A stretch of DNA of 25,374 bases from contig CAZWTI010000015.1 of NCBI GenBank assembly GCA_964637065.1, forward strand, positions 1-25,374, given 5' to 3'. Below are positions 2,580 through 25,374 of the stretch, piece after piece (within the stretch, counting starts at the first letter, position 1; every line of letters begins with the position of its first letter). The translations under genes and the position numbers were made by a program. This stretch comes from an uncultured Puniceicoccaceae bacterium. Lineage in GTDB: Bacteria > Verrucomicrobiota > Verrucomicrobiia > Opitutales > Seribacteraceae. The notes under the pieces were generated by a model. The model saw only the letters and a program-made list of their open reading frames with translations. It was not told where the DNA came from and searched no databases.

Positions 2580-2589
2580 CAATCCCAAG

Positions 2590-3477: not shown

Positions 3478-3562
3478 CGCGTTAATCGGTCTCTTCGGTG
3501 GCAGTCCTACTTATTCCGTTTTACCTTGCGGCGCTCGCGTTAGGAGGCCTAACGGAAAAGGT

Positions 3563-5550
<1,988 letters not shown>

Positions 5551-6387: not shown

Positions 6388-6399
6388 GGGATTGAACGA

Positions 6400-9007: not shown

Positions 9008-9089
9008 ACAGTTCAACTAACCTTCCCCCCTTCGTCCGAATCTTGAATAACGTTGCGGGTTGCCGCTCCGTTTGAAAAATCGTCTACAT

Positions 9090-10499
9090 ATGGCTGAAGA
9101 CAAACAGGCAACTTGGGGAGGAAGATTCACGGAAGGTCCATCCGAGTTGATGCATTGGTTTTGCGAGTCGGTTTCCTTTGACAAGCGACTTGCTCGTTTC
9201 GACGTGGCCGGAAGCAAGGCTCACTCCACCATGCTTGCCAAGCTCGGTTTGCTCACTGAGGAGGAATGTTCTGCCATTCATGTGGGTCTGGACGAATTGT
9301 TGACTGAAATCGACGAAGGTTCTTTCAATTGGGACGCATCCCTTGAGGATGTGCACATGAACCTCGAGCATGCCCTTCTCGAAAAGACTCCTGCCGCTGC
9401 CAAGCTTCACGCAGGCAGAAGTCGTAACGATCAAGTTGCAACAGACATGCGGCTATTCTTCAAGGATGCCTGCGGCAAGTTGGAAGAGACGATCGAGACC
9501 GTTATGAAAGCACTGCTGGTTCAAGCAAAGGTTCATGCGACTGTTCCTATACCTGGTTACACTCACCTCCAGCGGGCCCAACCTGTCACTGTCGGTCATC
9601 ATTTCCTCGCCCACCTCGAAGCCTTTGCTCGTGATCTGCTTCGTTTCTCCGAGGTTTCGGATCACGCTAATGTCTGCCCTCTGGGTTCCGGAGCAATCGC
9701 GGGAAGCACGTTGCCTCTAGATCGAGAACTCGTTGCTCGCGAGCTTGGATTCGTGGATGAAGACGGCAAACCTCGACTCACTGCCAATAGCATGGACGCA
9801 GTGGCAGATCGTGATCTTTTCGTAGAATTCGCGTCAGCGTGCGCCATCTGTGGGCTGCATGTTTCACGTTTGGCCGAGGATCTTATCCTATGGAATTCAA
9901 GCGAGTTCGGTTTTGTCGTTCTGCCGGATGCTTTTACCACGGGTTCGTCGCTCATGCCTCAGAAGAAGAACCCCGATGCCCTGGAATTGCTGCGGGGCAA
10001 GACAGGGCGACTCGTTGGCAACCTCCAAGCACTTTTCGTTGCCATCAAGGGTCTGCCTCTTACCTACAACAGAGACCTGCAGGAGGACAAGCCGCCGGTC
10101 TTTGATTCCTTCGACCAACTTGGCATGGGACTCGCCGTTCTTGCGGGTACGGTTGCCGGCTTGGAGATCAATGAGGGTCGCTGTCGAGAGGCAGCTTCCG
10201 ATCCCTTGTTGCTCGCTACCGACTTGGCGGATCATCTGGTTGAAAATGGTGTTCCTTTCCGTGAGGCTCATCATGCCGTTGGCGCCTTGGTTGCCTGTGC
10301 GGAGAAGGCAGGCGTGAGTTTGCCCGAATTGACTAATGATCAGGCGCATTCGGCTCACGAGGCCTGTTTAAGCCTTGGTTCGGATTGGCGTGAGGTTTTT
10401 GACTTGGATCGTGCCTTTTCCCGACGGGATAAGCCCGGTATGCCCGGGCCAAAGCAAGTCGCTTCGCGCATCTCTCACTGGGAAAACCTTCTGAGTTGA
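9090..10499 (+). CDS. argH: Argininosuccinate lyase
   Basis: [53 protein letters not shown] 9090 preferred over TTG 9060. Confidence 0.98.
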
Positions 10500-10520
10500 A
10501 ACTTGAGGGGTTACAATCAT

Positions 10521-11564
10521 ATGCATCACTTCCTCACATGCATCTTTTTTTTGTCGCTTGTTTGCTCGGTGTGGAGTGAACCACGTACTTGGACCACGAC
10601 TGATGGACGCAAGGCCGAAGGGGAACTGTTCGAGGTTGTCGGCGATGAAATTGGTCTGCTGATAGGTAGACAAGAATTTCGTTTTCCTCTTTCCCGCTTT
10701 ATTCCTGCAGACCATTCCTTTGTGCGTCAGTGGCAATCCAAGCCCCGATGCCATTTGTGTCACAATCCGCTTGGCACCCGCACCATGGAGGCGGGAGGAA
10801 GAACCTATCACACTTCATGCTTTCGTTGTCTTGTTTGCAAGAAGGTGTTCAAGGGTGGTGACAAGTTTCGTCGCGACCAATGGGGCATGCTTGCTCATGT
10901 TGAACATTTCTCGTTCGTGGCAACCTGTGGATCCTGTGGACGAATGTTTCGTAAGCGGGATGCCCGTCCGCAACAAGTCCTTCGTGATGGACGCATAGCC
11001 TGTCTCTCCTGTTTAGGTAATGCCGTGCTCGACGAAGCAACACTTGGTCTCGTCAACGATCGAGTGAAGGAATCATTGAGCAAGTGCGGGATCGAAAAGC
11101 CTGATGGAAAGATTACTCTGTTCATTGTGGACAAGACCAAACTGGACATCGAGGCGAAGCGCATTCATGCCGGCGGCAATCTGAAGGGCCTTACGCTTAC
11201 CAAGTTCCGTACCGTAACCAAAGGCGATGTTTCCAACACCACTTTCGAACATCGCATAATGGTGCTTTTCGGGCTTCCTCATGTGGAATGCGAGGCTGTT
11301 CTTGCCCATGAATATATGCATGTCTGGCTAAACGAACGCTTCATCGAGGGATCGCTGGGTACAATTGAAGGATTTTGCAACCTCGGTTCTGCGGCTCTAC
11401 TCAAGTTGGAGACGAGCAAACTGTCCTCCATCCTCATGAATAACATGCTCAATAATCCCAATCCCGTTTATGGTGACGGTTATCGTAAAATGGCTTCTCG
11501 TCTCAACCAGATTGGCTGGTCTCGCCTTCTTGGCGAAATGCGTGCGAGGGCAAAGAAAAAATAG
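10521..11564 (+). CDS. Exported SHD1 + LIM-type zinc fingers + DA1-family zinc metallopeptidase
   Basis: Signal peptide MHHFLTCIFFLSLVCSVWS; SHD1-like RTWTTTDGRKAEG...FPLSRFIPADHSFVRQW; CxxC-16-HxxCxxCxxC-19-HxxH; CxxC...DGRIACLSC; LFGLP...LAHEYMHVWL, EGFC, PVYGDGYR. ATG 10521 preferred over TTG 10503. Confidence 0.85.
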   Translation: MHHFLTCIFFLSLVCSVWSEPRTWTTTDGRKAEGELFEVVGDEIGLLIGRQEFRFPLSRFIPADHSFVRQWQSKPRCHLCHNPLGTRTMEAGGRTYHTSCFRCLVCKKVFKGGDKFRRDQWGMLAHVEHFSFVATCGSCGRMFRKRDARPQQVLRDGRIACLSCLGNAVLDEATLGLVNDRVKESLSKCGIEKPDGKITLFIVDKTKLDIEAKRIHAGGNLKGLTLTKFRTVTKGDVSNTTFEHRIMVLFGLPHVECEAVLAHEYMHVWLNERFIEGSLGTIEGFCNLGSAALLKLETSKLSSILMNNMLNNPNPVYGDGYRKMASRLNQIGWSRLLGEMRARAKKK

Positions 11565-11590
11565 CTTTGAACAAGTCTGAGCAAATTGTC

Positions 11591-12418
11591 ATGAAAATCG
11601 ATGCCCATCATCATTTTTGGAAATACGACCCTGTTGAATATGCGTGGATGAAGGAGGACATGGGTGTTCTCAAACGCGACTTCGGTCCCGCCGACCTAAA
11701 GAAAGAAATCGATGAAGCCGGCATAGACGGAGTCGTCTCAGTTCAAGCCAGTCAGACCCTAAATGAGACGGATGCGCTCCTCGATTACGCTGCCCGGGAA
11801 GATTTCATCAAAGGGGTGGTTGGTTGGTTTCCCTTGTCTCAAGATAATGCATTCGAGGTCATTGCCCCTTATGTTGAGAATGGATTTCTCAAGGGCGTCC
11901 GTCACGTGGTACAGGACGAACCGGATGATTGCTTCATCCTTGGAGAGGCTTTCAATCGAGGCGTTGCTCTTCTCAAGGGTTTCGATCTCGTGTACGACAT
12001 ATTGATTTACGAGCGACAGCTTGGTCCATCGATCGAGTTCGTCGACAGACATCCCGACCTAGTCTTTGTTCTCGATCACGTGGCCAAGCCTAGGATTCGC
12101 GACGATGTGAGGGAGCCTTGGTCCGACCTTATGGGCCAAATGGCTGAGCGACCGAACGTTTACTGTAAGCTTTCGGGCATGGCTACCGAAGGGGACTGGT
12201 CTTCTTGGACAAAGGAGCAACTTTTACCTTACATGGAAGTCGCCCTCGAGGCCTTCGGGCCCGATCGTTTGATGTTCGGTTCCGATTGGCCTGTTGCGCT
12301 GCTTGCCATAAACTATCAAAAGTGGGTCAAGGTTGTTGCGGACTTTACCTCCTCCCTTTCCGAAGACGAGCAAGCTGCCGTCTGGGGTAAAACTGCGGTT
12401 CGCGCCTACGATCTATAG
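11591..12418 (+). CDS. Amidohydrolase family, L-fuconolactone hydrolase-like (COG3618) sugar lactonase
   Basis: MKIDAHHHFW, VSVQA, KGVRH, LDHVAKP, CKLSGM, FGSDWPV. Alternative start TTG 11567. Confidence 0.8.
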   Translation: MKIDAHHHFWKYDPVEYAWMKEDMGVLKRDFGPADLKKEIDEAGIDGVVSVQASQTLNETDALLDYAAREDFIKGVVGWFPLSQDNAFEVIAPYVENGFLKGVRHVVQDEPDDCFILGEAFNRGVALLKGFDLVYDILIYERQLGPSIEFVDRHPDLVFVLDHVAKPRIRDDVREPWSDLMGQMAERPNVYCKLSGMATEGDWSSWTKEQLLPYMEVALEAFGPDRLMFGSDWPVALLAINYQKWVKVVADFTSSLSEDEQAAVWGKTAVRAYDL

Positions 12419-12444
12419 CTTGGATGGTTGTTATAATCCAAGCT
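12417..12444. terminator. Inverted repeat between convergent genes, possible bidirectional terminator
   Basis: AGCTTGGAT (12417-12425), 10-nt loop, ATCCAAGCT (12436-12444): perfect 9-bp stem in the convergent gap. No strong U-tract. Confidence 0.45.
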
Positions 12445-12466
12445 CACGAATGAAGGATTACCTTTT

Positions 12467-15460: not shown

Positions 15461-15576
15461 GAGATTCCTTGGATTGGGTAACAAAATCTTCGATTTTACT
15501 AGTGGGCCTTTAACTTATGAAAGAAGGTACGGGGCCTATACCACATTGCTAAAAGGTGATTGCCCAACGGTCAAGG

Positions 15577-17004
15577 TCAGGTTCCTGACACTACTTTGCG
15601 GTTGAAATGACCCTCGTTCAGATCGACACGCTCGGGACGGCCCTTGTGCATGTAGATTACCTTTGTGTGATCGAGGCCTAGGAGTGAGAGAATTGTGGCG
15701 TGTAAATCATGGACGTGCATCTTGTCTTCGGTTGCGAAGAGACCAAGTTCATCCGTCGCGCCGATGGTTTGTCCACCTTTCACGCCTCCCCCTGCCATCC
15801 ACATGGTGAAGCCGGTCGGGTTGTGGTCTCGACCATCGCCTTTTTCGCTCATGGGAGTGCGTCCGAACTCACCGCCCCAGATAACCAACGTCTCATCCAG
15901 CAGGCCACGAGCCTTGAGGTCGGTTATGAGGCCGACGATTGGGAGATCCACTTGAGCGCAGAGCCTGGAATGATTTTTCTCCATACCCGAGTGACTGTCC
16001 CACTTGCTTCCCGCTCCGTGGTAAAGTTGTACGAAGCGTACGCCCCTTTCGACTAGACGACGGGCAAGGAGGCATTGGCGACCATAGATTTTCGTCGGTT
16101 CTCGATCGATGCCATAAAGCTTTTTAGTGGCAGATGATTCATTAGAAAGGTCAACCGCATCCGGAGCCTTGGCTTGCATGTGCGCCGCCAATTCGTAGCT
16201 CCGTATGCGAGCTTCCAGTTCAGTATTGGTTTCACGTCCACGGAGATGTCGAAGGTTGAGATTGCGCAGGAAGGCCAATTTGCGGTTTTGCCGAATCTTT
16301 GGGATGTCCTTTGGAGGATGAAGGTTTGCAATGGGTGCGGTTCCCGACGCAAACAGTACCCCTTGGTGTCCAGCAGGCATGAAGCCCGAGCCCCAGCACC
16401 GAACACCGTTCACAACCATGGTCTTGGTATCCTTGATGACTACAAAGCCCGGCAAGCTTTCGTTTTCCGTGCCTAGACCATACGAAACCCATGCCCCGAG
16501 TGAAGGACGACCGCCAAACACGGAACCAGTGTTCATTTGGCAGACTCCGCCCGCATGATTTATGCCGTCCGAGACGCAGGAACGGATGACGCAGAGATCG
16601 TCGGCGATACCAGCGTGATGGGGGAGCCAGTCTGAAATCCATAGCCCACTTTCTCCGTGTTGCTTCCATTGCCGCTGCGAAGGAAGAAGAGGTGAATTGA
16701 CTTCTCCCATGGCGGTGACGGGGCGCTTAAAACTGTCCGGCATGCGTTGCCCTGCCAGTTTTTGGAGCAGTGGTTTGGGGTCAAAGAGGTCGAGATGGCT
16801 GGGCCCTCCCTCCATAAAAAGGAAGATTATGTTTTTGGCTTGCCCGAGGCGGTGCGGAATCTTGTTGGTCGCCGTGTTCTCCGAAGGTGTTCCCAGCAAA
16901 CCTTCACCCGTCAGGGCGGACAAGGCTAACGCTCCGAAGCCCGAACCTGCCGAAAGAAGGAAATCACGTCGGGATCTAGGAAAATCGAAACGGTTACAAG
17001 ACAT
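15577..17004 (-). CDS. DUF1501 domain protein (Tat-exported, PVC type)
   Basis: SRRDFL twin-arginine motif, IFLFMEGGPSHLDLFDPKP, CLLARRLVERGVRFVQL, WGGEFGRTP, GRDHNP, VHDLHATIL. Confidence 0.92.
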   Translation of the reverse strand: MSCNRFDFPRSRRDFLLSAGSGFGALALSALTGEGLLGTPSENTATNKIPHRLGQAKNIIFLFMEGGPSHLDLFDPKPLLQKLAGQRMPDSFKRPVTAMGEVNSPLLPSQRQWKQHGESGLWISDWLPHHAGIADDLCVIRSCVSDGINHAGGVCQMNTGSVFGGRPSLGAWVSYGLGTENESLPGFVVIKDTKTMVVNGVRCWGSGFMPAGHQGVLFASGTAPIANLHPPKDIPKIRQNRKLAFLRNLNLRHLRGRETNTELEARIRSYELAAHMQAKAPDAVDLSNESSATKKLYGIDREPTKIYGRQCLLARRLVERGVRFVQLYHGAGSKWDSHSGMEKNHSRLCAQVDLPIVGLITDLKARGLLDETLVIWGGEFGRTPMSEKGDGRDHNPTGFTMWMAGGGVKGGQTIGATDELGLFATEDKMHVHDLHATILSLLGLDHTKVIYMHKGRPERVDLNEGHFNRKVVSGT

Positions 17005-17015
17005 GAATGCAAATA

Positions 17016-19961
17016 CTAGTGGAGATAGAGAAACTCGTTTGAGTTAAGCAAAGCCTGACAAAAGTCGCTGACCGCAGCAAGGGTAGGGGAGGTGTCCGCG
17101 TTTGGTTTTGGAATAGAGCGACGCAGCCAAGAGGTGGACGGTGCTGGGGTTTCTCCTTGAGAACCGTTGAAGTTCCAGTCGAAGAGCCTGACAGGCGCTT
17201 TGGGTGGATTGGAGACTAGAAGGTCTTTTTTTGAGAGTGTTGCGGGGGTCAATACGAGCCGAGCTAGTTGACCGTCCCAGAGGTGCCCTATTTGGTCCCG
17301 CCCGCCAATGAGAAACTTTGTAGCCGCTTTTTGCAGGCGATTCGCAACATTGAAGTCAACTTGGGAGCTTTGCAGAATGGCATCGGCTATGGAGAGGTCG
17401 AGAAAATGAAAGGTGGCGTTGCTCTTGCCGTCAGAGCTTGTGGAGATAGAGGTCGCTAGATAAACGGGTTTGCCCAAGGGGATTCGAAGGTTGGATGGAA
17501 CTACTTCATAGATCAAGTCACCGCCTATGTTCTCGCCGATGACTTGGAGAATGAAGTTTCGTGGGTCGTAACGTGATTTGGCACTCGTTACGCCGAAGGT
17601 CCAACCTGGGGAGCGATGATTCCCGTTCCATCGGGATGCAAGGGTATTTACGCTGGCGTCGGCGTGAATGGCGTCCAAAGTGACGACGACCTCAATGGTG
17701 AAGGAATCACCTAGGTTGGAAGGCGCAGTCCATTGCAATTGTTCGAAGCGGCTTCCTGGTTGAAGCCATAGTGAGCGTGATCCTAACCCGAAGAAATCGG
17801 CGTCCACCTTGTCAAAAGCTTGTTCAATGGGACGAAGGCCATTCTCGTGTGGAAATTTGTCGGACCTTTGTGCAACATTTGATTTTGGAGCAGAGATGTG
17901 GGCAAGCTCGAGAAGGTAGGCAAGAGCATCGTCTCGCTCATCGTTGTCGGGGGGTCGAGCGTAGGCATAAACATATGCATCTTCAACTAATGAAGGATCA
18001 ATACTCTTTCTTTTTTTCAGAAGTCTTTTGGCAAATGCTCGAGCACGTATTCTTGGCCATTCGGAATTGGACATAAGTAGGGCTTGTTTGGGCGTAGTGG
18101 TTTTTTGGCGAGTGGGCGAGGATTCGAATCCAGTCGGGGCATCGAAGGCGGTTAGCACGGCATTTGGATTGTTTCGCATTTTTTTGAGATAGATCGAACG
18201 GACATTCGAACCATCCGAGTCGGAGGGACCGTCTTTCCTTTCACGAAGCTCGCCCGACAAGGCCAGCATGGCGTCTCTAACTTGTTCGGCGGAAAGGCGA
18301 CTTGGCGGAAATCGCCACAGAAGGCGATTGCCGGGATCGGTTAGCTTCGCTTGGGTAGAAGGTTCGTTCCGTGCAGTTTGACGATAAGTGGAGCTAGTTA
18401 GGATTAACTTGTGCAGTGGCTTAAGTCGCCAACCATTCTTGATGAATCGCCGTGTGAGCCAGTCTAGGAGTTTCGGGTGGGAGGGTGGCTCGCCAAGGGT
18501 GCCGAAGTCGTTTGGGGTGGGCACTATGCCTTGCCCAAAGTGTTGCTGCCAGACTCGGTTAACGATGACGCGTGTGGATAGCGGGTTCTTTTCATTCGTG
18601 ATCCATTCTGCGAGCGCGGTGCGGCGACCTGTGGAAAACTTGTTGGGGCTGATCTTTGGCGGAGGAAGTCCGAGGAGGGTGAGAAACGCGGGTTCCACCT
18701 CGGTCTTGTCTTTACTAGCTGGAATGAATGTACGGGCGGGTTTTTCGCTTATGTCAAACGTGATGAATGCGTCGATCAACTTTGGTTTCTTTTTCTCTGA
18801 CTCGGTCAGTTTAGCCTTTAGATTCTTGTAGGTGCTCATTTCCTCGGCTTTACCCTTTAACCTATCCTCTACTTTTTGCTTCCGCCGTTGCGCTTGTACC
18901 TGCCGCTCCACGAGTTGCACCAGTTGCTCCTCGTAGGTCGATCGCTCGGTTGCAGGTTTACGATATATCTCCTGCACATCTTTTGGGAACTGGTTTACGG
19001 CGAATTGAATTTTGCTTTTGTGGGCTTCGTTCTCGATGGCGGCGATTAGCTGTCGAAGTTCGAGCGTTTCCTTTTTCCATGCCTGTAGTGCGGCGAAATG
19101 CTCAGCCGTGCCCAACTTGCGGATTTCAGGCCACCAAACGCTTGAGAGGAAGCTTTGCAAGGAATAGTAATCCTTTTGTAAAAGAGGGTCGAACTTGAGG
19201 TCGTGACACTGGGCGCAACCAATTCCGAGCCCGAGGAACGCTTCGGCTGTCACGTTTGTCATCTCGTTCATGATGAGTTCCCATTGCATGCGAGCGTTAC
19301 GCTGGTTGTGCTCGTAGATGCCGAGACGCAGAAATGCAGTCGCGATCAGAACTTCGGGATCATCGGGAGCCAATTCGTCGCCCGCGAGTTGTTCACGAAC
19401 AAACTGATCATAGGGCTTGTCATCGTTGAGGGACTTTATCACATAATCTCGATAAAGGTAAACTGTGGGACGAAAGTCGTCGGCTCGGTAGCCATCCGAT
19501 TCGGCATAGCGAACGACGTCTAGCCAGTGTGTTGCCCAACGTTCCCCATAGCGTGGCGAGGCAAGAAGTTCATCGACGAGATTTTGGTAGGCTATTTCCG
19601 AATTTTTGCCGAACGAGGTCACAAAGACCTCCACTTGGCTAGGAGTTGGAGGAAGCCCATGTAGATCGAAGTAGAGCCGCCGAACCAGTTCGCGAGGACT
19701 TGCCGCGGGAGCTGGACTAAGATTGTTCTCGTCCAGTTTGCGGACCACGAAAAAGTCGATCTCGTTGCGCGCCCACGTCTCGCCGTTTTCGGGAACCGCT
19801 TGATTGCCCACTGGTTGAATCGCCCACCATGCCTTCTCCTCGTTGCTGAAAGCGTGCTTGTAGTCGGCACTCTCGGCAATACCGATCAAGGACAACGAGA
19901 ACAAGGTTGGTATAAGGGGCTTCAAGCGTAAACTAATCTGGCGTGTCATCCTTTTCCTCAT
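17016..19961 (-). CDS. DUF1549 (PSCyt2) + DUF1553 (PSD1) protein with inserted LamG/ConA-like domain
   Basis: WWAIQP, LVRRLYFDLHGLPPT, YGERWATHWLDVVRYAESDG, CAQCHD, RVIVNRVWQQHFGQG, TTPKQALLMSN, LLNSNEFLYL. LamG-like FTIEVVV...IGGRDQ...WDGQLARL. Alternative ATG 19949. Confidence 0.9.
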   Translation of the reverse strand: MRKRMTRQISLRLKPLIPTLFSLSLIGIAESADYKHAFSNEEKAWWAIQPVGNQAVPENGETWARNEIDFFVVRKLDENNLSPAPAASPRELVRRLYFDLHGLPPTPSQVEVFVTSFGKNSEIAYQNLVDELLASPRYGERWATHWLDVVRYAESDGYRADDFRPTVYLYRDYVIKSLNDDKPYDQFVREQLAGDELAPDDPEVLIATAFLRLGIYEHNQRNARMQWELIMNEMTNVTAEAFLGLGIGCAQCHDLKFDPLLQKDYYSLQSFLSSVWWPEIRKLGTAEHFAALQAWKKETLELRQLIAAIENEAHKSKIQFAVNQFPKDVQEIYRKPATERSTYEEQLVQLVERQVQAQRRKQKVEDRLKGKAEEMSTYKNLKAKLTESEKKKPKLIDAFITFDISEKPARTFIPASKDKTEVEPAFLTLLGLPPPKISPNKFSTGRRTALAEWITNEKNPLSTRVIVNRVWQQHFGQGIVPTPNDFGTLGEPPSHPKLLDWLTRRFIKNGWRLKPLHKLILTSSTYRQTARNEPSTQAKLTDPGNRLLWRFPPSRLSAEQVRDAMLALSGELRERKDGPSDSDGSNVRSIYLKKMRNNPNAVLTAFDAPTGFESSPTRQKTTTPKQALLMSNSEWPRIRARAFAKRLLKKRKSIDPSLVEDAYVYAYARPPDNDERDDALAYLLELAHISAPKSNVAQRSDKFPHENGLRPIEQAFDKVDADFFGLGSRSLWLQPGSRFEQLQWTAPSNLGDSFTIEVVVTLDAIHADASVNTLASRWNGNHRSPGWTFGVTSAKSRYDPRNFILQVIGENIGGDLIYEVVPSNLRIPLGKPVYLATSISTSSDGKSNATFHFLDLSIADAILQSSQVDFNVANRLQKAATKFLIGGRDQIGHLWDGQLARLVLTPATLSKKDLLVSNPPKAPVRLFDWNFNGSQGETPAPSTSWLRRSIPKPNADTSPTLAAVSDFCQALLNSNEFLYLH

Positions 19962-20017
19962 GGAAAGAAATGTAGCGAATTCACCACTCTTTCAAGGAGA
20001 TGGGAATGTGATTTAAC

Positions 20018-20992
20018 TCAAATGTCATTTATGGTCGGGATGCGATCAGCAAAGCCTGCAAAGGCTTTGTCAGGGTTCAATAGAAGTGGATAGTAGTCGC
20101 CGCCCATCTTTTCACCCTTCGGCACTCTCGGATAGTTGTCGGCTCCCGGAGCGTTTACCCCGTCGTCATCTCGGTTGCTCACCACGCCATCCGCAAAAAC
20201 GTTGATCAAGGTTGCTCGCCGTCTGCGATCGGAGTGGTTTTCATAGGACCCATGCATCATGAGCGGGTGATGGAAACTCGCCTCACCGGCCTTCATCTCG
20301 ATAGGAACCTTGCGGCCAAAGTCAGCTAATTGTTCTGGGGTTAAATTCTCCCGAATGGCGTCCATGTCGCCCGCCAAGCTTTTCTTTTCCAGCAAGCCCC
20401 AGTGATGACTCTTTGGAATGTAGAACATGCAGCCGTTCTCGACGTCGACGTCGTCAAGGCCCATCCAGCATGTGAGGTGAGACATCGGTTTTGTCCACGT
20501 CCAGTAGGAATAGTCCTGATGCCATGCGACCACGCTGCCGTGCTTGGCGGGTTTACTGAACAATTGGTCGTGGAAGAGACGGTAGCCTTTGCCCAGCAAC
20601 TGGTATGCTGCCATTAGAAAGGCTGGGTTCCACAGTATGTCGTGGAAGGCGGGTCGCACTCTCCAAGCGCCCAAGGCGTGAAAGAGTACGCTGTCTGCAT
20701 TCTCGGACTCGTTGCTATTGTACTCGTAAAAGTACTCGTTTCCCTCGTGCTCGGGTTCCACCATTTCCTCAAGCTGTTCTTTAAGAGCGTCCAACTGTTG
20801 CTCATTTAACAAACGTACACCGTGCAGGAAACCTTCTTCCTTGAATTGTGAAAGCTGACCCTCGCTCAAGGCATGTTTCAACCATTCCTCGGCATTTCGA
20901 GGTTGGGGGAATAACTCGGTTAACAATTCTTTGTCCAATCCCAAGTCGCTGACCATGACACCAAACCCTATGGGTGAATCCCATAGCGTCAA
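20018..20992 (-). CDS. PhyH-family 2-oxoglutarate/Fe(II) dioxygenase
   Basis: HDQLFSKP, AWHQDYSYW (HxD), CWMGLDD, NGCM, HHPLMMHGS (distal His), NHSDRRRRA. Alternative ATG 20956. Confidence 0.88.
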   Translation of the reverse strand: MTLWDSPIGFGVMVSDLGLDKELLTELFPQPRNAEEWLKHALSEGQLSQFKEEGFLHGVRLLNEQQLDALKEQLEEMVEPEHEGNEYFYEYNSNESENADSVLFHALGAWRVRPAFHDILWNPAFLMAAYQLLGKGYRLFHDQLFSKPAKHGSVVAWHQDYSYWTWTKPMSHLTCWMGLDDVDVENGCMFYIPKSHHWGLLEKKSLAGDMDAIRENLTPEQLADFGRKVPIEMKAGEASFHHPLMMHGSYENHSDRRRRATLINVFADGVVSNRDDDGVNAPGADNYPRVPKGEKMGGDYYPLLLNPDKAFAGFADRIPTINDI

Positions 20993-21004
20993 CCCCAGTG
21001 GCTT

Positions 21005-23146
21005 TCAGTTTTTGCGAGCGTCTGGAATAAGGGCTCTCGAAATTTGGTGTCCCGCCAGGAAGTAACCGATGGGCTTGTCCTTGTTGTCCGTGACCACCCA
21101 AGTATTGTTTGCGTAGGTGACCTGTGTCCTCTTTTCTTTAGGTTTGATTGTTCCGTATGCTTGGCGTTCGCCTTTGTATCCTATCCAGTAAAGCTTGACC
21201 GGATTTTCGGAATGGTTCTCGAAGATTACTTCCGTTTGTGGGCCTCTTTTTGATCTAGGCACAGCTTGAAAGTTAATCGAAGGGTGAAACTTCAAAGGTT
21301 CCGTATCCTTGTTTTCACCTCTTGAAAACCAGACCGACATGGATTTAGCCCCTCTATTTTCCCAACTGAAATAAGGCACTAGCTTAATGGAAGAAGGGCT
21401 TGGCTCACTGTCCGTCTTACGCATGCCGGGGAATCTAATCATGGTCATGCCTTTGAGTGTGCCGTTGGGAATCGTTGAGACATTGACCTGTTCGGGTTTG
21501 GGGATTGCAGGAAGAAAGACAAGCCTGACGGGACCATTATTGTCCACTCCCTCGGCACAAAAAACTAGGGGGCCGCATGTTACCGCCACGCGTTCCCTGT
21601 AAGCTTTTACTTTCTCTATGCACTCACTGAAGCGGACTGGCATGGGAAGATAGAGCTCTACTTCATCTCCTGAGTTCCAATTGCGGCCTAGAATTGCAAA
21701 CCCTTTCTCCATTTTTGCTTTCACGGGTTTACCGTTCAAGCGCAACTGCCATTGCTCTTTGGTTGGAGAGAGGAAGAAATAAAGTTCGCTTGGAATGAAC
21801 TTTTTTCCAGTCCAAGTAGGTATGCGGAGGCGTAGGTTGAAGGTTTGCTCGGTTTTTTTTGGGGTGATGGTTAGCTTGATTTTTCCGTCGAACGGATACT
21901 TGGTCCTTTGCGTGATTCCAACCTTGCCCGCCGACAAGGGGATATTGGTCGAACTTGATGCATAAAGGGTCACATAGATGTCGTTTTTGTCGTAACCATA
22001 AAAGTAACTTGGAACTTGGGGTATTGTACGGGCCACGCTGCCGTGACAGCAGGGAACACGCCTGTCTTCACGTCGTGCGGCATGACCTGCGGACTCGAGC
22101 ACGTTTGTGTAGAAGAACTTGTTTCCCGAAAGGCTTACGCCCGAGAGAAATCCGTTGTAGAGTACTGCTTCCATGACGTCGAAGTACTGAGCGTCCTTGG
22201 TAAGCATACCCAGACGGTAGTTGTAGAACACCTGTCCGGATGCGGCGCAAGTTTCGTTATACCCGCCGCGTCCTATTGCAAAGGGTTCACCAAAGCCTTC
22301 CCACCGGGAAACTGACCCCGTCCCTCCGGTAATGCAAATTCGGGTGTTTACCATGTTCTTCCAGATTCGCTGGGCAGCTTCGCCGTATTTACTTTCACCT
22401 GTCAGTGCGGCGACGTCTACGAGGGCAGACGCGAACCATCCGAAAGAACCAGCGTGTCCGCCGGGTTCATTCATTTCCTGCACGGGCTTGTGTTGTGCGG
22501 CGAACTTGGGCCATGTCCTTTGACCCGTCGCAGGCATCCCTCGAATGTCCATGAACTTCTGGGCAAGGTTCTTGAAATATTCTTCCCCAGTTGCTTGGTA
22601 GAGACTAACAATTGCCATCCCGTAGTAAGCATGGGATTCAGGTTCCTTGAGGTAGCTTCCGTCCGTGCCGAAATACTCTTCGTCCCTTTTCCGATACTCC
22701 TTCAAGGCCTCTTTCAGCCAATCGTTTTTCTTTCCTGTTGCCAGATACAAGAAAGCGGGAGCTTCTGGGACTGCTCCGAACCATTCGTTGCCTTCCCGAA
22801 TCGATTTCCCGATGTTCGAGCACATTCGCTCCATCATTTCGCGAAGTTCCAGATTTTCTTCCCTTCTAAGGCTATGGGAAACTCCTTCCAAGGTTCTGAC
22901 CAGGGCGAGTGCGGAGCGTCCGGGTTGAGGGTCGGCGTAATTTACTCCAAGCGCCTGCAGAACGTGAGGGATCGTGACATTTGCGTGGGTCTTCATTCTT
23001 TCCGACCAGAAACCTTCTTCGAGATTCACCTCACTTAGATCAATGGGGGTGATTGAGTAGCCAATCGGAGCGGGTTTAATTGCTGCGGGCACTCCATCCA
23101 CCAAGAGGCAACTCAGAATCCACCAAAAGAGTTGTCTAACGGTCAT
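21005..23146 (-). CDS. Exported GH127-family glycoside hydrolase with C-terminal VHL beta domain
   Basis: Signal peptide; QHKPV..GHA, ITGGTGS..EGF (E283), NETCAA (E298/C300), FFYTNVL, PCC (C366/C367), RLRIPTW, GPLVFCAE. C-terminal ~95 aa VIFENHS..LYWIGYKG..YG..TY..W. Confidence 0.88.
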   Translation of the reverse strand: MTVRQLFWWILSCLLVDGVPAAIKPAPIGYSITPIDLSEVNLEEGFWSERMKTHANVTIPHVLQALGVNYADPQPGRSALALVRTLEGVSHSLRREENLELREMMERMCSNIGKSIREGNEWFGAVPEAPAFLYLATGKKNDWLKEALKEYRKRDEEYFGTDGSYLKEPESHAYYGMAIVSLYQATGEEYFKNLAQKFMDIRGMPATGQRTWPKFAAQHKPVQEMNEPGGHAGSFGWFASALVDVAALTGESKYGEAAQRIWKNMVNTRICITGGTGSVSRWEGFGEPFAIGRGGYNETCAASGQVFYNYRLGMLTKDAQYFDVMEAVLYNGFLSGVSLSGNKFFYTNVLESAGHAARREDRRVPCCHGSVARTIPQVPSYFYGYDKNDIYVTLYASSSTNIPLSAGKVGITQRTKYPFDGKIKLTITPKKTEQTFNLRLRIPTWTGKKFIPSELYFFLSPTKEQWQLRLNGKPVKAKMEKGFAILGRNWNSGDEVELYLPMPVRFSECIEKVKAYRERVAVTCGPLVFCAEGVDNNGPVRLVFLPAIPKPEQVNVSTIPNGTLKGMTMIRFPGMRKTDSEPSPSSIKLVPYFSWENRGAKSMSVWFSRGENKDTEPLKFHPSINFQAVPRSKRGPQTEVIFENHSENPVKLYWIGYKGERQAYGTIKPKEKRTQVTYANNTWVVTDNKDKPIGYFLAGHQISRALIPDARKN

Positions 23147-23166
23147 TTACAATGACTAGAAAGTTT

Positions 23167-24030
23167 TCAGATGCCTGACGGTATGATTGCCTTGGCGTCT
23201 TCCTTTTCAGAAATAAAATAGCCGAGAGGCCTGTCCTCTTTGTCACAAACCATCCAAGTGTTTGCAGTGTAGGTGTTCTGCCTTCGAGTTTTTCCAGTCT
23301 CGATTTCTCCGTACAGACGCTTGTCGCCACCGTAGCTAATCCAGAACAACTTGATCGTCTTCTTCGATTTATTTTCAAAGAAGACAGTAATGTTTGGGCC
23401 GGATCTCGATTTCGGGGGATTGAACGTGGAAGCTGGGTTCCACTTTAGATTTCCCAGTTTCTTTGGAGGTTCAGGTGGAGGAAGGGCGGAGAGATCGGCT
23501 CCAGTGTCGATCACAAGGTTGGGGAGTGCCTTTTGTAGACGGCTTACACCCGCATCTGTCGCCTTGGTTTGCCAAAGATACAGGCGTCGTAATTTTTTAA
23601 ATCCAGTCAGGTGCTCCAGTCCCTTGTCCGTGACGGCGGTATCATAGAGATTTAGATATTCCAGACTCGAGAGCCCCTTTAGATGGGCCAGACCTGCATC
23701 GTCGACTTTCGTTCTTTCCAAATGCAAGCGCCGCAAACTTAAAAAGGTATTTAGGTGAACAAGTCCACCGCTGGTTATCTTTGTTCCTCCCAAGTGCAAG
23801 GTCACAACCTCTTTCAGGGCGCTTATTTTGGGCAAGTCTTTGTCCGAGAGTTCTTTTCCGCGTAGATGAAAGTCGACTTCCAGTTCACTGGATTTCTGAG
23901 AGACGTTGCTTACGGTAGCTCCCAGTTTCTCGATGGCGGACAATGTCACTTTGTCGACTGCCGAGACGCAAAACACGAACAGGCACATATGGAATGTGGC
24001 GATGAACAAAAAACTAATTATCCCTTTCAC
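23167..24030 (-). CDS. Exported leucine-rich repeat protein with C-terminal VHL beta domain
   Basis: GTG start, hydrophobic signal, ~4 LRRs of 24 aa, LPPPEPPK linker, then VFFENKS..LFWISYGG..YG..TY..W. Confidence 0.85.
   Translation of the reverse strand: MKGIISFLFIATFHMCLFVFCVSAVDKVTLSAIEKLGATVSNVSQKSSELEVDFHLRGKELSDKDLPKISALKEVVTLHLGGTKITSGGLVHLNTFLSLRRLHLERTKVDDAGLAHLKGLSSLEYLNLYDTAVTDKGLEHLTGFKKLRRLYLWQTKATDAGVSRLQKALPNLVIDTGADLSALPPPEPPKKLGNLKWNPASTFNPPKSRSGPNITVFFENKSKKTIKLFWISYGGDKRLYGEIETGKTRRQNTYTANTWMVCDKEDRPLGYFISEKEDAKAIIPSGI
23521..23820 (-). repeat. Leucine-rich repeats, 24-aa period (protein-level)
   Basis: LKEVVTLHLGGTKITSGGLVHLNT / FLSLRRLHLERTKVDDAGLAHLKG / LSSLEYLNLYDTAVTDKGLEHLTG / FKKLRRLYLWQTKATDAGVSRLQK. 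Confidence 0.9.
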
Positions 24031-24085
24031 GCTGCTTCAAGTTGGGATTCTTTTGAAAAACCTCAAGTCTGGATCAAGATGAGGC

Positions 24086-25374
24086 TTACTTTTTCTTTGG
24101 GGTTCCCTCAACCCCGCCTGCTTTTTTGCGTGCGGTCTGCTTAAAGTAGGGGTTGATTTTCACTCGCAGCGCCCAATCCAACCATTCTTCTCGCAGCTTC
24201 TTGGCCTTGTCGGGAAAGGACTTGATGAGGTCGCTGGTTTCACAACGGTCCTGAGCGATATTGTAGAGTTCCCACACACCGTTGTTATAGCGACTGTTGC
24301 TCCGAACCAGTTTCCAGTCGCCCCGACGTATGGCGCTTGATCCGAAATGATCGAAGCAGAGGACGCGCTCGGGCATTTTGCTTTCGCCCTCGAAGATCGG
24401 CACGAAGCTGGTGCCCTCGACGGGCTGTATCTGGTTTTCGGCAAATGTCTCCGGGTATTCGGCCCCGGTGGCCGAACAGATCGTCGGCATGAGGTCGATC
24501 AGGTGGATGGGGGTTCGAACCCAGCGGTCCGCCTTCTTGATGCCCTTGGGCCAATGGGCAATTAGTGGACTACATTGGCCGCCTTCGTAGTTGAAGTGCT
24601 TGTACATCCGCATGGGGGTGTTGCTAAGACAGGACCATGCGCTGCCGACGGAGTGGTGGGTACCCGCCCCACCCACTTTGTTGAGGTCTGGGCCCTTGTG
24701 CAAAGTGGTCTTGCCCGTGCGGCTGCGACCATCGAAACCGTAGGGCCCCCATTCGTAGCAAGCCCCGTTGTCGCTGGTGAAGAGGATTAGGGTGTCGTCG
24801 AGGTTGCCGCCTTCTTCCAACTGTCGCAGGATGCGCCCGATCCCCTGGTCGACATGCGCAACCATGGCGGCGAAGGTGGCCATGCGGTAGACCAAGTCCT
24901 CGCGCCGATCCGCAGGCACCTCCTCCCAGGTCGGGTTTTGCTTGCCCGGGAATCCGTTGGCGATGTCCTTGCGGTCAAGGGGAACGTCGGAAAGGCCGGT
25001 GAACTGCCAACTTTTGGCGACAAGGCCGGATTTCTTTTGCCGCTCGTAACGCTCCTCCCGCAAGATGTCCCAGCCGCGGCGGTAGATTTCGAGGTAGGTG
25101 TCGCGTGTCTTGGCCGGTGCATGGAGTGGAAAGTGGGGCGAGGTATGTGCCAGATAGAGGATGAATGGCTCCTTCTTTTTTTGCCCCTGCTTGACGAACG
25201 CGTCGGCATAGTCGGAAAACGCGTCGGTGGCAGAGAACTCGTCGGGCTTGTACTGGAACTCGGGTTTGTGATCGGCCGGCAGACGCCGGTAGTTATTCAC
25301 CTGCCACTGGCTCGTGCTGTGGCCCCGGGTGTAGCCGTAGAACTCGTCGAAGCCGCGGGTCTCCGGGCTTTCCT
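24086..25374 (-). CDS. Arylsulfatase-family (S1) sulfatase, 5' end beyond right edge of window
   Basis: The frame stays open past the ORF-track GTG 25300 (ESPETRGFDEFYGYTRGHSTSQWQV). Motifs RGFDEFYG, YLAHTSPHFPLHAP, DQGIGRIL, FTSDNG, SNTPMRMYKH, IDLMPT, GDWKLV, ELYNIAQD. The CxPxR motif lies outside the window. Confidence 0.92.
   Translation of the reverse strand, partial: ESPETRGFDEFYGYTRGHSTSQWQVNNYRRLPADHKPEFQYKPDEFSATDAFSDYADAFVKQGQKKKEPFILYLAHTSPHFPLHAPAKTRDTYLEIYRRGWDILREERYERQKKSGLVAKSWQFTGLSDVPLDRKDIANGFPGKQNPTWEEVPADRREDLVYRMATFAAMVAHVDQGIGRILRQLEEGGNLDDTLILFTSDNGACYEWGPYGFDGRSRTGKTTLHKGPDLNKVGGAGTHHSVGSAWSCLSNTPMRMYKHFNYEGGQCSPLIAHWPKGIKKADRWVRTPIHLIDLMPTICSATGAEYPETFAENQIQPVEGTSFVPIFEGESKMPERVLCFDHFGSSAIRRGDWKLVRSNSRYNNGVWELYNIAQDRCETSDLIKSFPDKAKKLREEWLDWALRVKINPYFKQTARKKAGGVEGTPKKK

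What the first reader, a model, noticed from the sequence alone, without database searches (positions are those of the whole stretch)
20018..24030. Candidate hydroxyproline-centred system: LRR-VHL, GH127-VHL and a 2OG-Fe(II) dioxygenase
Seen: three co-oriented genes separated by only 20 and 12 nt, two ending in VHL beta domains. Established: eukaryotic pVHL reads 4-hydroxyproline written by 2OG-Fe(II) prolyl hydroxylases; the GH127 founder HypBA1 removes beta-L-arabinofuranose from Hyp-linked arabinosides; the PhyH family includes, as I recall, a bacterial proline trans-4-hydroxylase. Inference: all three point to hydroxyproline. The locus may recognise and deglycosylate Hyp-rich algal wall glycoproteins, or form a bacterial hydroxylation writer/reader pair. 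I know of no description of such a system. Caveat: the dioxygenase appears cytoplasmic while the VHL proteins have signal peptides.
Basis: partly seen in the sequence, partly recalled or inferred. Interest (0 to 1): 0.8.

Follow-up and report, generated by a model that had tools for sequence, protein, structure and literature searches.

The report
Exported enzymes tagged with VHL-like domains
Two neighbouring exported proteins of a marine Verrucomicrobia-type bacterium (a leucine-rich-repeat protein and a GH127 sugar-cleaving enzyme) each end in a true relative of the hydroxyproline-gripping domain of the human VHL tumour suppressor, probably a targeting module for their substrate, whereas the dioxygenase gene next to them is a bystander and not a hydroxyproline "writer".

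Summary
On the minus strand lie three co-oriented genes: LRR-VHL (24030..23167), GH127-VHL (23146..21005) and a PhyH dioxygenase (20992 or 20956..20018). Both VHL domains are genuine pVHL beta-domain homologues: they pass the Pfam threshold, a family profile hits only pVHL in the PDB (E 1.5e-11), and an AF2 model (pLDDT 94) has pVHL as top fold. Four of the five hydroxyproline-pocket residues are kept (W, Y, T for S111, W; H115 is Asn).

The three-gene "system" is not supported. The PhyH ortholog (65-83% identical in many genomes) is a cytoplasmic, stand-alone gene with changing neighbours. It adjoins a VHL gene only here and in one congener, and adjoins 1 of 6 GH127-VHL loci. It resembles no prolyl hydroxylase, and no P4H-type gene was found in this 79%-complete genome.

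The real unit is a lineage-specific set of exported VHL-tagged proteins: sulfatases, LRR, GH127, DUF1080, cytochrome c. Phylum-wide the domain sits mainly in DPP-IV-type proline peptidases. VHL-bearing genomes are enriched for a 4-hydroxyproline epimerase operon, so targeting to hydroxyproline-rich glycoproteins is plausible but untested. A sulfated-galactan (carrageenan-type GH127) reading remains open.

The scan has noted bacterial VHL pockets before, on other DNA.

The parts
24086..25372 (-). S1-type sulfatase, 5' end cut by the window edge; first gene of the co-oriented run, 55 nt upstream of LRR-VHL; carries no VHL domain itself
   Evidence: Pfam Sulfatase + SGSH_C. It is 84% identical over 416 aa to a 651-aa sulfatase of G009 that does end in a VHL domain and lies between GH127-VHL and LRR-VHL there.
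23167..24030 (-). Exported LRR-VHL protein (287 aa), with no catalytic domain
   Evidence: Pfam LRR_4/LRR_8 + VHL. Orthologs at 45-62% identity occur in all 8 same-genus genomes. AF2 model, mean pLDDT 85, pTM 0.54: two independently placed domains joined by a disordered Pro-rich linker.
23503..23922 (-). LRR solenoid of the LRR-VHL protein (aa 37-176, about six repeats)
   Evidence: Regular strand/helix repeats with pLDDT 80-96 in model m65719a362533; LRR Pfam matches.
23170..23454 (-). VHL beta-like domain of the LRR protein (aa 193-287); pocket equivalents W230, Y240, T253, N257, W259
   Evidence: Pfam PF01847, E 1.9e-8; alignment columns; residue positions.
21005..23146 (-). Exported GH127-VHL protein (713 aa)
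   Evidence: Pfam GH127 catalytic, middle and C-terminal domains + VHL. Full-length orthologs including the VHL domain occur in L032, L035, L091, L120 and L121 at 46-68% identity.
21311..23062 (-). GH127 cysteine-glycosidase body (aa 29-612) with E283 (acid/base), E298, C300, C366, C367 (Zn site and nucleophile)
   Evidence: phmmer alignment to HypBA1 3wkw places these residues on E322, E338, C340, C417, C418. Nearest solved chain is 6ex6, E 5.9e-94. The N-terminal ~125 aa match the family only weakly.
21008..21283 (-). VHL beta-like domain of the GH127 protein (aa 622-713); pocket equivalents W654, Y664, T677, N681, W683
   Evidence: Pfam PF01847, E 2.8e-8. Gapless phmmer alignment to human pVHL 69-121. 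AF2 pLDDT 94. Foldseek top hits are all pVHL, TM 0.69, probability 1.00.
20018..20956 (-). PhyH-family 2OG/Fe(II) dioxygenase (312 aa from the ATG at 20956; a TTG at 20992 is the alternative start). Cytoplasmic. Judged a neighbour, NOT a component
   Evidence: Pfam PhyH, 124.6 bits. H158-x-D160 and a distal His are read from the sequence. Orthologs are 312 aa, 65-83% identical, with varying neighbours.
20968..20986 (-). 7-bp hairpin in the 48-nt spacer between GH127-VHL and the dioxygenase ATG; a possible weak transcript boundary
   Evidence: Terminator-like site, but the site count in the region is not above shuffles (8 found against 6.2 +/- 2.6). Sequence read.

Best explanation
The locus holds part of a lineage-specific set of exported, VHL-tagged degradative proteins: a sulfatase, then an LRR-VHL adaptor, then a GH127 cysteine glycosidase with a C-terminal VHL module. 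The VHL beta-like domain is a portable ligand-binding module, used as a carbohydrate-binding module would be. Its conserved pocket (Trp, Tyr, Ser/Thr, Trp, with His, Asn or Ala at the fifth position) most likely grips a proline- or hydroxyproline-containing peptide epitope. That would hold the enzymes on a (sulfated, arabinosylated) hydroxyproline-rich glycoprotein while they strip sulfate and terminal sugars. The LRR-VHL protein has no catalytic domain and would bridge the same ligand to something else. The PhyH dioxygenase immediately downstream is a conserved cytoplasmic small-molecule oxygenase of unknown substrate. It happens to lie beside the spot where the VHL genes were inserted, and it neither writes nor reads hydroxyproline for them. 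Shown: homology, fold, pocket conservation, fusion partners, synteny and co-occurrence. Inferred: the ligand, and the targeting role.
For: (1) True pVHL homology. Pfam scores exceed the cut-off. A profile of 55 bacterial domains hits only pVHL in the PDB at E 1.5e-11, with consensus 'tYsGHvW' against human 'SYRGHLW'. The AF2 model has pLDDT 94 and Foldseek returns pVHL first.
(2) Pocket conservation in 56 domains of relatives: W88 56/56, Y98 45/56, S111 as Thr/Ser 55/55, W117 55/55, H115 as H25/A17/N13.
(3) Portable module. In relatives it is fused to sulfatases (28 of 57), LRR (16), DPP-IV/S9 peptidases (4), GH127 (3), HU/IHF, cytochrome c and DUF1080. G009 has five VHL-tagged genes in a row, including GH127-VHL, sulfatase-VHL and LRR-VHL.
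(4) Phylum-wide, 13 of 14 VHL ORFs fetched are DPP-IV-type proline peptidases, and these keep the full human-like pocket. DPP-IV is also the commonest partner among global hits.
(5) A 4-hydroxyproline epimerase (443.9 bits, cut-off 442) with an adjacent FAD D-amino-acid dehydrogenase occurs in 14 of 17 VHL-positive relatives and 0 of 24 VHL-negative ones. That includes the only VHL-positive genome outside the family. In a 400-genome phylum sample the odds ratio is 6, p 0.005, uncorrected for phylogeny.
(6) PhyH is a bystander: see synteny, the nearest PDB chains, and no PF13640 match in the genome.
Against: No binding data exist for any bacterial VHL domain (PMC7736814 states that the function is unknown). 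In the two window copies H115, one of the two residues that hydrogen-bond the Hyp hydroxyl in pVHL, is Asn, and in 17 of 56 relatives it is Ala. W117 and F76 are also fold-core residues (PMC3688787), so part of the conservation is structural. The commonest partner in this family is a sulfatase, which points to sulfated glycans rather than proteins. GH127 specificity is unproven, and the N-terminal half of the catalytic domain is divergent. The co-occurrence with the Hyp epimerase is confounded by phylogeny and genome size, and it is only 5 of 18 at phylum level. In 13 phylum-level loci the DPP-IV-VHL gene had no Hyp-catabolic neighbour within 3 kb. The VHL domain also occurs in cytoplasmic contexts (HU/IHF, kinase-WD40, SAM-TIR), so its ligand need not be one thing.
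Confidence: 0.5

Rival explanations
1. The VHL modules are carbohydrate-binding modules for a sulfated algal glycan, with no relation to hydroxyproline. The sulfatase and the GH127 act in sequence on sulfated galactan (carrageenan-type) oligosaccharides, GH127 being a 3,6-anhydro-D-galactosidase. The aromatic pocket stacks on a sugar ring.
For: Half of the VHL fusions in relatives are sulfatases. A sulfatase lies directly upstream here and in G009. In marine Zobellia the GH127 enzymes clustered with S1 sulfatases are alpha-1,3-(3,6-anhydro)-D-galactosidases that act after desulfation (PMC5698469). A Trp/Tyr/Trp pocket with a hydroxyl donor is also typical of sugar-binding sites (general knowledge). 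The habitat is marine.
Against: The nearest solved GH127 chains are all deposited as glycosidase or beta-L-arabinofuranosidase (6ex6, 4qjy, 3wkw), and no DagA sequence could be compared. This reading does not explain the phylum-wide fusion to DPP-IV-type proline peptidases. It does not explain the cytoplasmic HU, kinase and TIR fusions, or the enrichment of the Hyp epimerase operon.
Confidence: 0.25
2. The VHL modules are protein-protein docking or anchoring modules, dockerin-like. They assemble several exported enzymes on a common scaffold or on the cell surface, and LRR-VHL serves as an adaptor.
For: The module sits at the extreme C-terminus of many unrelated exported enzymes, behind a Pro-rich disordered linker. 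VHL-tagged genes cluster in one operon in G009. pVHL itself is a protein-recognition module. A non-catalytic LRR-VHL protein is conserved in every genome of the genus.
Against: No candidate scaffold with repeated partner modules was seen. In some sulfatases and all DPP-IV fusions the domain is internal or N-terminal. There are only 2-9 copies per genome. No complex prediction was run, because no partner could be named.
Confidence: 0.12
3. Incidental neighbours. The VHL domains are inert beta-sandwich spacers or stabilising domains, and the three genes share nothing beyond orientation.
For: Synteny around each gene changes between relatives. Promoter and terminator scans give nothing above chance. 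Part of the conservation falls on fold-core residues (PMC3688787).
Against: The surface pocket residues that are not fold core (the W88, Y98 and S111 equivalents) are invariant or nearly so across fusions that diverged long ago. Sulfatase + LRR-VHL + GH127-VHL recur together in another genus.
Confidence: 0.1
4. One reading: the PhyH dioxygenase hydroxylates proline residues, or free proline, and the VHL proteins read the product.
For: The gene is adjacent and co-oriented here. LRR-VHL lies directly upstream of the PhyH ortholog in one congener, G006. The Fe(II)/2OG motifs are intact.
Against: PhyH has no signal peptide while the VHL proteins are exported. Its orthologs keep 65-83% identity in genomes where the neighbours are PSCyt2/PSD1-DUF1501 pairs, ABC transporters or purine genes, never VHL. 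VHL-bearing genomes G009, G012, G021 and G023 lack the ortholog. Its nearest solved relatives are RESC14, SnoK and MysH, with no proline hydroxylase among hits at E <= 0.01. NCBIfam best hits lie far below their cut-offs. Known Hyp writers for VHL are P4H/PHD-type enzymes (PF13640), and none was found (genome 79% complete).
Confidence: 0.03

Closest known systems
Human/metazoan pVHL beta domain (Pfam PF01847; PDB 1LM8, 1VCB, 4AJY, 7CJB)
   Same: Same fold and detectable sequence homology. The equivalents of W88, Y98, S111 (as Thr), Y112 and W117, plus N78 and G93, are conserved. It is a ligand-recognition beta-sandwich.
   Different: There is no alpha domain or BC-box, so no elongin/cullin ligase. 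The proteins are exported, not cytosolic. H115 is Asn. The domain is fused to an LRR or to a glycosidase. The ligand is unknown.
Bacterial DPP-IV/S9 peptidases with an inserted VHL beta domain
   Same: Same domain family in the same phylum, exported hydrolases, pocket conserved.
   Different: Those copies keep His115 and sit N-terminal of the peptidase propeller. Here the module is C-terminal on a glycosidase and on an LRR protein, an expansion seen only in this family and a few Planctomycetota-labelled MAGs.
GH127 beta-L-arabinofuranosidases (HypBA1 of Bifidobacterium longum, 3WKW; Geobacillus 4QJY; chain 6EX6, which I recall as Bacteroides BT3674 but could not verify)
   Same: Three-domain GH127 architecture. 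Acid/base Glu and the Zn-binding Glu-x-Cys and Cys-Cys are all present.
   Different: An extra C-terminal VHL module. The N-terminal ~125 residues are divergent. The substrate is untested. HypBA1 is cytoplasmic and acts on Ara-beta1,2-Ara released from Hyp-arabinosides (PMC10850190), not on the glycoprotein itself.
GH127 3,6-anhydro-D-galactosidases DagA1-3 with S1 sulfatases in the Zobellia carrageenan locus (PMC5698469)
   Same: A marine bacterium, and a GH127 gene clustered with sulfatase genes.
   Different: The window lacks the other carrageenan genes (GH16/GH82, dau genes).
Carbohydrate-binding modules and dockerins of secreted CAZymes
   Same: A small beta-sandwich appended through a flexible linker to diverse exported catalytic domains; several copies per genome; genes clustered.
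   Different: A different fold family. The homology points to a peptide (hydroxyproline) pocket rather than a glycan-binding face or a Ca-dependent cohesin partner.
PhyH-family 2OG/Fe(II) dioxygenases (PhyH, EctD, PhnY*, SnoK/SnoN, MysH)
   Same: Full-length PhyH domain, HxD...H iron triad, size about 310 aa, cytoplasmic.
   Different: It belongs to none of the curated equivalogs (best 52 bits against a cut-off of 500). It forms a very conserved orphan ortholog group in marine Verrucomicrobiota and Planctomycetota.
PHD/EGLN-pVHL hydroxylation writer/reader pair of metazoa; Pseudomonas PPHD-EF-Tu
   Same: Only the presence of a 2OG oxygenase gene next to VHL-domain genes.
   Different: The oxygenase is of a different family (PhyH, not P4H/PHD). 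The two sit in different cell compartments, and the linkage is not conserved.

Membership tests
pVHL beta domain (PF01847) | Sequence match above the curated Pfam threshold | tested here: met
   34.7 and 34.1 bits against a cut-off of 21. A profile of 55 bacterial domains hits only pVHL in the PDB, E 1.5e-11.
pVHL beta domain (PF01847) | Seven-stranded beta-sandwich fold of pVHL | tested here: met
   AF2 pLDDT 94 with seven strands. The Foldseek PDB top 50 are all pVHL, TM 0.67-0.71, rmsd about 2.7 A.
pVHL beta domain (PF01847) | Hydroxyproline pocket W88, Y98, S111, H115, W117 | tested here: inconclusive
   Window copies have W, Y, T, N, W. Four of five are kept, and the His that hydrogen-bonds the 4-OH is Asn. 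Across relatives it is H25/A17/N13.
pVHL beta domain (PF01847) | Binding of 4-hydroxyproline peptides | not testable with these tools
   Needs ITC, SPR or a crystal structure. No modified-residue docking is available.
VCB-type E3 ligase substrate receptor | Alpha domain with a BC-box binding elongin C | tested here: not met
   Both proteins end within a few residues of the last beta strand. The Pfam and PDB alignments cover only the beta domain.
GH127 cysteine glycosidase | Catalytic, middle and C-terminal GH127 domains | tested here: met
   PF07944, PF20736 and PF20737 all exceed their cut-offs. Only model positions 175-375 of the catalytic domain match.
GH127 cysteine glycosidase | Acid/base Glu322, and Zn/nucleophile Glu338, Cys340, Cys417, Cys418 (HypBA1 numbering) | tested here: met
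   E283, E298, C300, C366 and C367 align to them.
GH127 cysteine glycosidase | Beta-L-arabinofuranosidase specificity (as against aceric-acid hydrolase or 3,6-anhydro-D-galactosidase) | not testable with these tools
   The NCBIfam aceric-acid-hydrolase model scores 269 bits against a cut-off of 950. Nearest PDB chain is 6ex6. No DagA sequences were obtainable.
PhyH 2OG/Fe(II) dioxygenase | PhyH domain with the HxD...H iron triad | tested here: met
   PF05721, 124.6 bits, full length. H158-Q-D160 and a distal His (H241, H242 or H247) are read from the sequence.
Prolyl 4-hydroxylase (P4H/PHD type, PF13640) or known bacterial proline hydroxylases | Sequence membership | tested here: not met
   Only PhyH matches in Pfam. 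No proline hydroxylase appears among PDB hits at E <= 0.01. There is no PF13640 match in the genome, which is 79% complete.
   PhyH is adjacent in 1 of 6 GH127-VHL loci. The PhyH ortholog adjoins a VHL gene in 2 of about 14 contexts.
Hydroxyproline-utilising organism | Presence of 4-hydroxyproline epimerase plus D-hydroxyproline dehydrogenase genes | tested here: met
   Pro_racemase-family match in the window's own genome at G000:C325:1413-2327, E 2.4e-96. A G002 ortholog scores 443.9 bits on NF010577 (cut-off 442) and has an adjacent DAO-family gene. The later pathway steps were not searched.

The most novel reading that the evidence does not exclude
The VHL beta fold is an ancient hydroxyproline-(glyco)peptide reader that bacteria use outside the cell as a substrate-targeting module, a peptide-epitope counterpart of carbohydrate-binding modules. 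In this Opitutales-type lineage it has spread from a DPP-IV-type peptidase onto sulfatases, a GH127 beta-L-arabinofuranosidase and an LRR adaptor. The result would be a toolkit that is held on sulfated, arabinosylated hydroxyproline-rich glycoproteins (algal or plant wall HRGPs/AGPs, or collagen-like proteins) while it dismantles them. The released Hyp would feed a Hyp epimerase pathway. Hydroxyproline reading by VHL would then predate metazoan oxygen sensing.
Probability: 0.3. Interest if true: 0.8.

Novelty: new variant of a known kind. Interest (0 to 1): 0.45.

Why it matters
If the modules do bind hydroxyproline epitopes, they would be the first binding modules known to direct glycosidases and sulfatases to the protein part of a glycoprotein. 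They would supply small, stable natural Hyp or Hyp-glycan binders, useful as probes for HRGPs and collagen or as scaffolds related to the VHL ligands used in PROTACs. They would also place the origin of the VHL hydroxyproline reader in bacterial extracellular digestion rather than in animal oxygen sensing. For genome annotation, the practical lesson is that the neighbouring PhyH gene should not be read as a prolyl hydroxylase. GH127 next to a sulfatase in a marine genome has two competing substrate readings.

Tried and rejected
(1) A word-indexed homolog search restricted to the VHL region found only the query and one close relative. The exhaustive representative search was used instead.
(2) A literature search for PDB code 6EX6 gave only false hits. 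Its identity as BT3674 rests on my memory alone.
(3) The single genome-contig scan with a GH127 alignment returned only four close relatives. No tree against characterised HypBA1, BT1003 or DagA enzymes could be built, so GH127 specificity stays open.
(4) The promoter/terminator scan of 19800-24300 was not above shuffles. Operon boundaries are unresolved.
(5) Neighbours of 13 phylum-level DPP-IV-VHL genes shared no gene family within 3 kb. I could not reproduce the earlier scan notes that place such genes inside Hyp-catabolic operons in this sample.
(6) The maximum-likelihood tree of 55 VHL domains has unresolved deep forks. It shows only that domains group by fusion partner: the window LRR copy groups with G006, and the GH127 copy with G001. 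There is no recent shuffling between the two window genes.
(7) No complex prediction was run, because I claim no specific protein pair.
(8) I considered a C-terminal sorting signal (T9SS-CTD-like) and rejected it. The domain is internal in DPP-IV and some sulfatase fusions, occurs in 9-12 tandem copies in giant proteins, and is homologous to a ligand-binding domain.
(9) Model coordinates are not exposed, so pocket geometry, and whether the conserved upstream 'LKWxP' segment occupies the pocket, could not be examined.

Full report
OBSERVATION. Three co-oriented minus-strand ORFs occupy 24030..23167 (287 aa), 23146..21005 (713 aa) and 20992..20018 (324 aa), with gaps of 20 and 12 nt. Pfam gives LRR repeats plus a C-terminal VHL beta domain for the first. 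The second has the three GH127 domains plus a C-terminal VHL beta domain, and the third is a full-length PhyH domain. There is one correction. Orthologs of the dioxygenase are 312 aa and align from residue 11-13, so the start is probably the ATG at 20956. The spacer to GH127-VHL is then 48 nt and holds a 7-bp hairpin. The run continues on the same strand in both directions. Upstream is a sulfatase (24086..25372, cut by the window edge). Downstream are a PSCyt2/PSD1 protein, a DUF1501 protein and a PQQ-propeller protein. The assembly is a 2.58-Mb, 79%-complete MAG. Names attached to close homologues and to orthologous contigs point to marine Verrucomicrobiota of the Opitutales/Opitutia type.

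THE VHL DOMAINS ARE REAL. phmmer aligns the GH127 module without gaps to human pVHL residues 69-121. A profile of 55 bacterial domains from relatives hits only pVHL chains in the PDB, at E 1.5e-11. Its consensus 'tYsGHvW' lies over human 'SYRGHLW'. An AF2 model of the module has mean pLDDT 94 and seven strands, and the Foldseek top 50 PDB hits are all pVHL, with TM about 0.69. The residues that line the hydroxyproline pocket of pVHL are W88, Y98, S111, H115 and W117, with S111 and H115 bonding the 4-OH (established structural knowledge of the HIF-pVHL complexes, from memory). They correspond to W654, Y664, T677, N681, W683 in GH127-VHL and W230, Y240, T253, N257, W259 in LRR-VHL. Across 56 distinct domains of relatives W88 is kept in 56/56, W117 in 55/55, the S111 position is Thr or Ser in 55/55 and Y98 is kept in 45/56. 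H115 is His in 25, Ala in 17 and Asn in 13. W117 and F76 are also fold-core residues (PMC3688787), so only part of this conservation argues for a ligand site. Neither protein has an alpha domain, so nothing suggests a ubiquitin-ligase role.

THE MODULE IS PORTABLE. The own genome holds a third VHL copy at the end of a sulfatase fragment. In 40 relatives the domain occurs in 8 of 8 genomes of the genus and 15 of 24 of the family, at 2-9 copies per genome. I extracted 57 VHL-bearing ORFs and masked the VHL part. The partners were sulfatases (28; the module C-terminal or N-terminal of the catalytic domain), LRR proteins (16), DPP-IV/S9 peptidases (4), GH127 (3) and HU/IHF-type proteins (2). Single cases were a cytochrome c/PA14/DUF6797 protein, a DUF1080 (3-keto-disaccharide-hydrolase-like) protein and an M90-like protein. 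An exhaustive search of 1.84 billion cluster representatives found 1429 proteins at E <= 0.001. These include giants with 9-12 tandem VHL repeats and SAM-TIR, DM9-ankyrin and kinase-WD40 fusions. Among 50 mid-sized hits the commonest partner was DPP-IV. In a 400-genome sample of the phylum only 18 genomes carry the domain. Thirteen of the 14 ORFs I fetched are orthologous DPP-IV/S9 peptidases with the module in front of the propeller, and these copies keep the complete human-type pocket including His115. The spread onto sulfatases, LRR and GH127 is thus an expansion specific to this family, plus two MAGs labelled Planctomycetota and Phycisphaerales that carry full-length GH127-VHL orthologs. 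A domain tree groups copies by fusion partner, so the two window modules are not recent duplicates of each other. The AF2 model of LRR-VHL shows an N-terminal hydrophobic helix, a six-repeat LRR, a disordered Pro-rich linker and the VHL sandwich, placed independently (pTM 0.54).

THE DIOXYGENASE IS A BYSTANDER. The PhyH ortholog is 72-81% identical in nine relatives and 65-83% identical in thousands of marine Verrucomicrobiota and Planctomycetota sequences. In G002, G003, G004, G007, G011 and G013 it lies between or beside PSCyt2/PSD1 + DUF1501 pairs, within the same block (argininosuccinate lyase, LIM/DA1-like protein, amidohydrolase) that occupies 9060..12418 of the window. No VHL gene is nearby in those genomes. 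Only in G006 does an LRR-VHL gene sit directly upstream. The window looks like that arrangement with GH127-VHL inserted between the two. In more distant genomes the neighbours are an ABC transporter and a PDZ protease, or an AI-2E transporter, SGL and GMP synthase, or a DUF1961 protein. Conversely, of six GH127-VHL loci (window, L032, L035, L091, L120, L121) only the window has PhyH next to it. VHL-bearing G009, G012, G021 and G023 (89-96% complete) lack the ortholog. The protein has no signal peptide. Its nearest solved relatives are the trypanosome RESC14 protein, SnoK, MysH and PHYHD1, with no proline hydroxylase at E <= 0.01. Its best NCBIfam hits (methylphosphonate hydroxylase 52 bits, ectoine hydroxylase 39 bits) are far below their cut-offs. 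No P4H/PHD-type domain (PF13640) was found in the genome. The writer/reader reading is therefore rejected. The enzyme is an orphan small-molecule oxygenase.

WHAT IS LINKED. In G009, a different genus, one tightly packed operon encodes GH127-VHL, a sulfatase-VHL that is 84% identical to the window sulfatase, LRR-VHL and a cytochrome c/PA14-VHL protein. A DUF1080-VHL gene follows. In seven other genomes of the genus (G001-G005, G007, G008) LRR-VHL lies next to a divergent sulfatase gene; in G007 only a 241-aa sulfatase ORF is seen. The recurrent association is thus sulfatase + LRR-VHL (+ GH127-VHL), not PhyH. G002 keeps only a decayed remnant of GH127-VHL.

THE GH127 BODY. All five catalytic or Zn residues of HypBA1 are conserved, as E283, E298, C300, C366 and C367. 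The nearest solved chain is 6ex6 (E 5.9e-94), followed by the Geobacillus and Bifidobacterium beta-L-arabinofuranosidases and BT1003. The first ~125 residues are divergent. GH127 enzymes are mostly beta-L-arabinofuranosidases (PMC10850190). In marine Zobellia, however, three GH127 enzymes clustered with sulfatases are 3,6-anhydro-D-galactosidases of carrageenan catabolism (PMC5698469). I could not obtain those sequences for a tree, so the sugar specificity is open. 'GH127 implies hydroxyproline' is only a family-level hint.

INDEPENDENT HINT TOWARDS HYDROXYPROLINE. A Pro_racemase-family gene is present in 14 of the 41 close genomes, including the window's own. All 14 are VHL-positive (17 are VHL-positive in all), and none of the 24 VHL-negative genomes has it. 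The only VHL-positive genome outside the family, G029, is also the only carrier outside the family. The gene scores as 4-hydroxyproline epimerase (443.9 bits, cut-off 442). It is always followed by a DAO-family D-amino-acid dehydrogenase, which together give the first two steps of Hyp catabolism. In the 400-genome phylum sample 5 of 18 VHL-positive genomes carry it against 23 of 382 VHL-negative ones (odds ratio 6, p 0.005). At genus level the figures are 4 of 12 against 13 of 172 (p 0.016). These tests ignore phylogeny and genome size, and the genes are not adjacent to VHL genes. This is suggestive, not decisive.

SYNTHESIS. Best explanation (about 0.5): the window carries two members, plus an associated sulfatase, of a lineage-specific set of exported VHL-tagged proteins. 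The VHL module is a ligand-binding targeting domain, most probably for a Pro/Hyp-containing epitope of a glycoprotein substrate. The PhyH gene is unrelated. Main rival (0.25): the modules bind a sulfated glycan, and the sulfatase-GH127 pair works on carrageenan-type oligosaccharides. Lesser rivals are docking or anchoring modules (0.12), inert domains and incidental neighbours (0.10), and the writer/reader system (0.03).

NOVELTY. Bacterial VHL beta domains are listed in Pfam. The one paper that discusses them says their function is unknown (PMC7736814), and another merely annotates one (PMC9002001). Searches for bacterial VHL with sulfatase or glycosidase found nothing. This scan has already reported VHL pockets in bacterial DPP-IV-type peptidases and other exported proteins on other DNA. 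I found the peptidase fusions independently, before reading those notes. I confirm the architecture but not the operon linkage those notes describe. The GH127-VHL, sulfatase-VHL and LRR-VHL architectures, and the co-occurrence with the Hyp epimerase operon in this family, are additions. The finding is a new variant of a known, functionally untested domain family, and the proposed three-gene system is not real. Interest 0.45.

Noticed in passing
window 10503-11564 (+): A protein with a LIM zinc-finger domain and a DA1-like peptidase domain, both typically eukaryotic. It is conserved at 64-73% identity in relatives, inside the block of argininosuccinate lyase, LIM/DA1 and amidohydrolase.
   Followed up: partly
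L035 (G009:C51) 8995-19368: Five VHL-tagged genes lie within 10 kb: GH127-VHL, sulfatase-VHL, LRR-VHL, cytochrome c/PA14/DUF6797-VHL and DUF1080-VHL. The first four abut or overlap, so they look like one operon.
   Followed up: partly
L105-L118 (14 genomes across the phylum): Outside the window's family, the VHL domain of this phylum sits almost only in ~800-aa DPP-IV/S9 peptidases, with the full W/Y/S-T/H/W pocket. No neighbour is conserved within 3 kb.
   Followed up: partly
L098 (G002:C7) 4670-14121; own genome L102 (G000:C325) 1365-3583: A 4-hydroxyproline epimerase + DAO dehydrogenase pair. In genomes of the genus it is flanked by two LRR proteins, a PQQ-propeller protein, a CitMHS-type transporter and a sulfatase.
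   Followed up: partly
L043 (G002:C11) 9728-10468: A decayed remnant of GH127-VHL. The N-terminal ~115 residues (59-70% identical to the window protein) are interrupted by a stop and joined to a fragment of the VHL domain.
   Followed up: partly
L074 2903-4123 (-), L086 3302-5071 (-): HU/IHF-type DNA-binding domain fused to a VHL domain with a full His115 pocket. This is the architecture reported as the accessory protein of type X retrons (PMC7736814); no reverse transcriptase was looked for here.
   Followed up: no
P0005-P0010 (library proteins): Proteins of 900-2000 aa that consist of 7-12 tandem VHL beta domains; also SAM-TIR-VHL, DM9-VHL-ankyrin and kinase-WD40-VHL architectures. Origin unknown, possibly eukaryotic in part.
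   Followed up: partly
window 15577-19961 (-) and relatives L036, L037, L038, L039, L041: The conserved PhyH ortholog is repeatedly sandwiched between PSCyt2/PSD1 (DUF1549/DUF1553) and DUF1501 gene pairs within this family. Function unknown.
   Followed up: partly
L120, L121: Full-length GH127-VHL orthologs (56-59% identical) lie on contigs of MAGs labelled Planctomycetota and Phycisphaerales. This means either transfer between PVC phyla or a binning error.
   Followed up: no
window 2-562 (-): The N-terminal half of a C5 cytosine DNA methyltransferase at the window edge, downstream of an ABC ATPase/permease pair.
   Followed up: no
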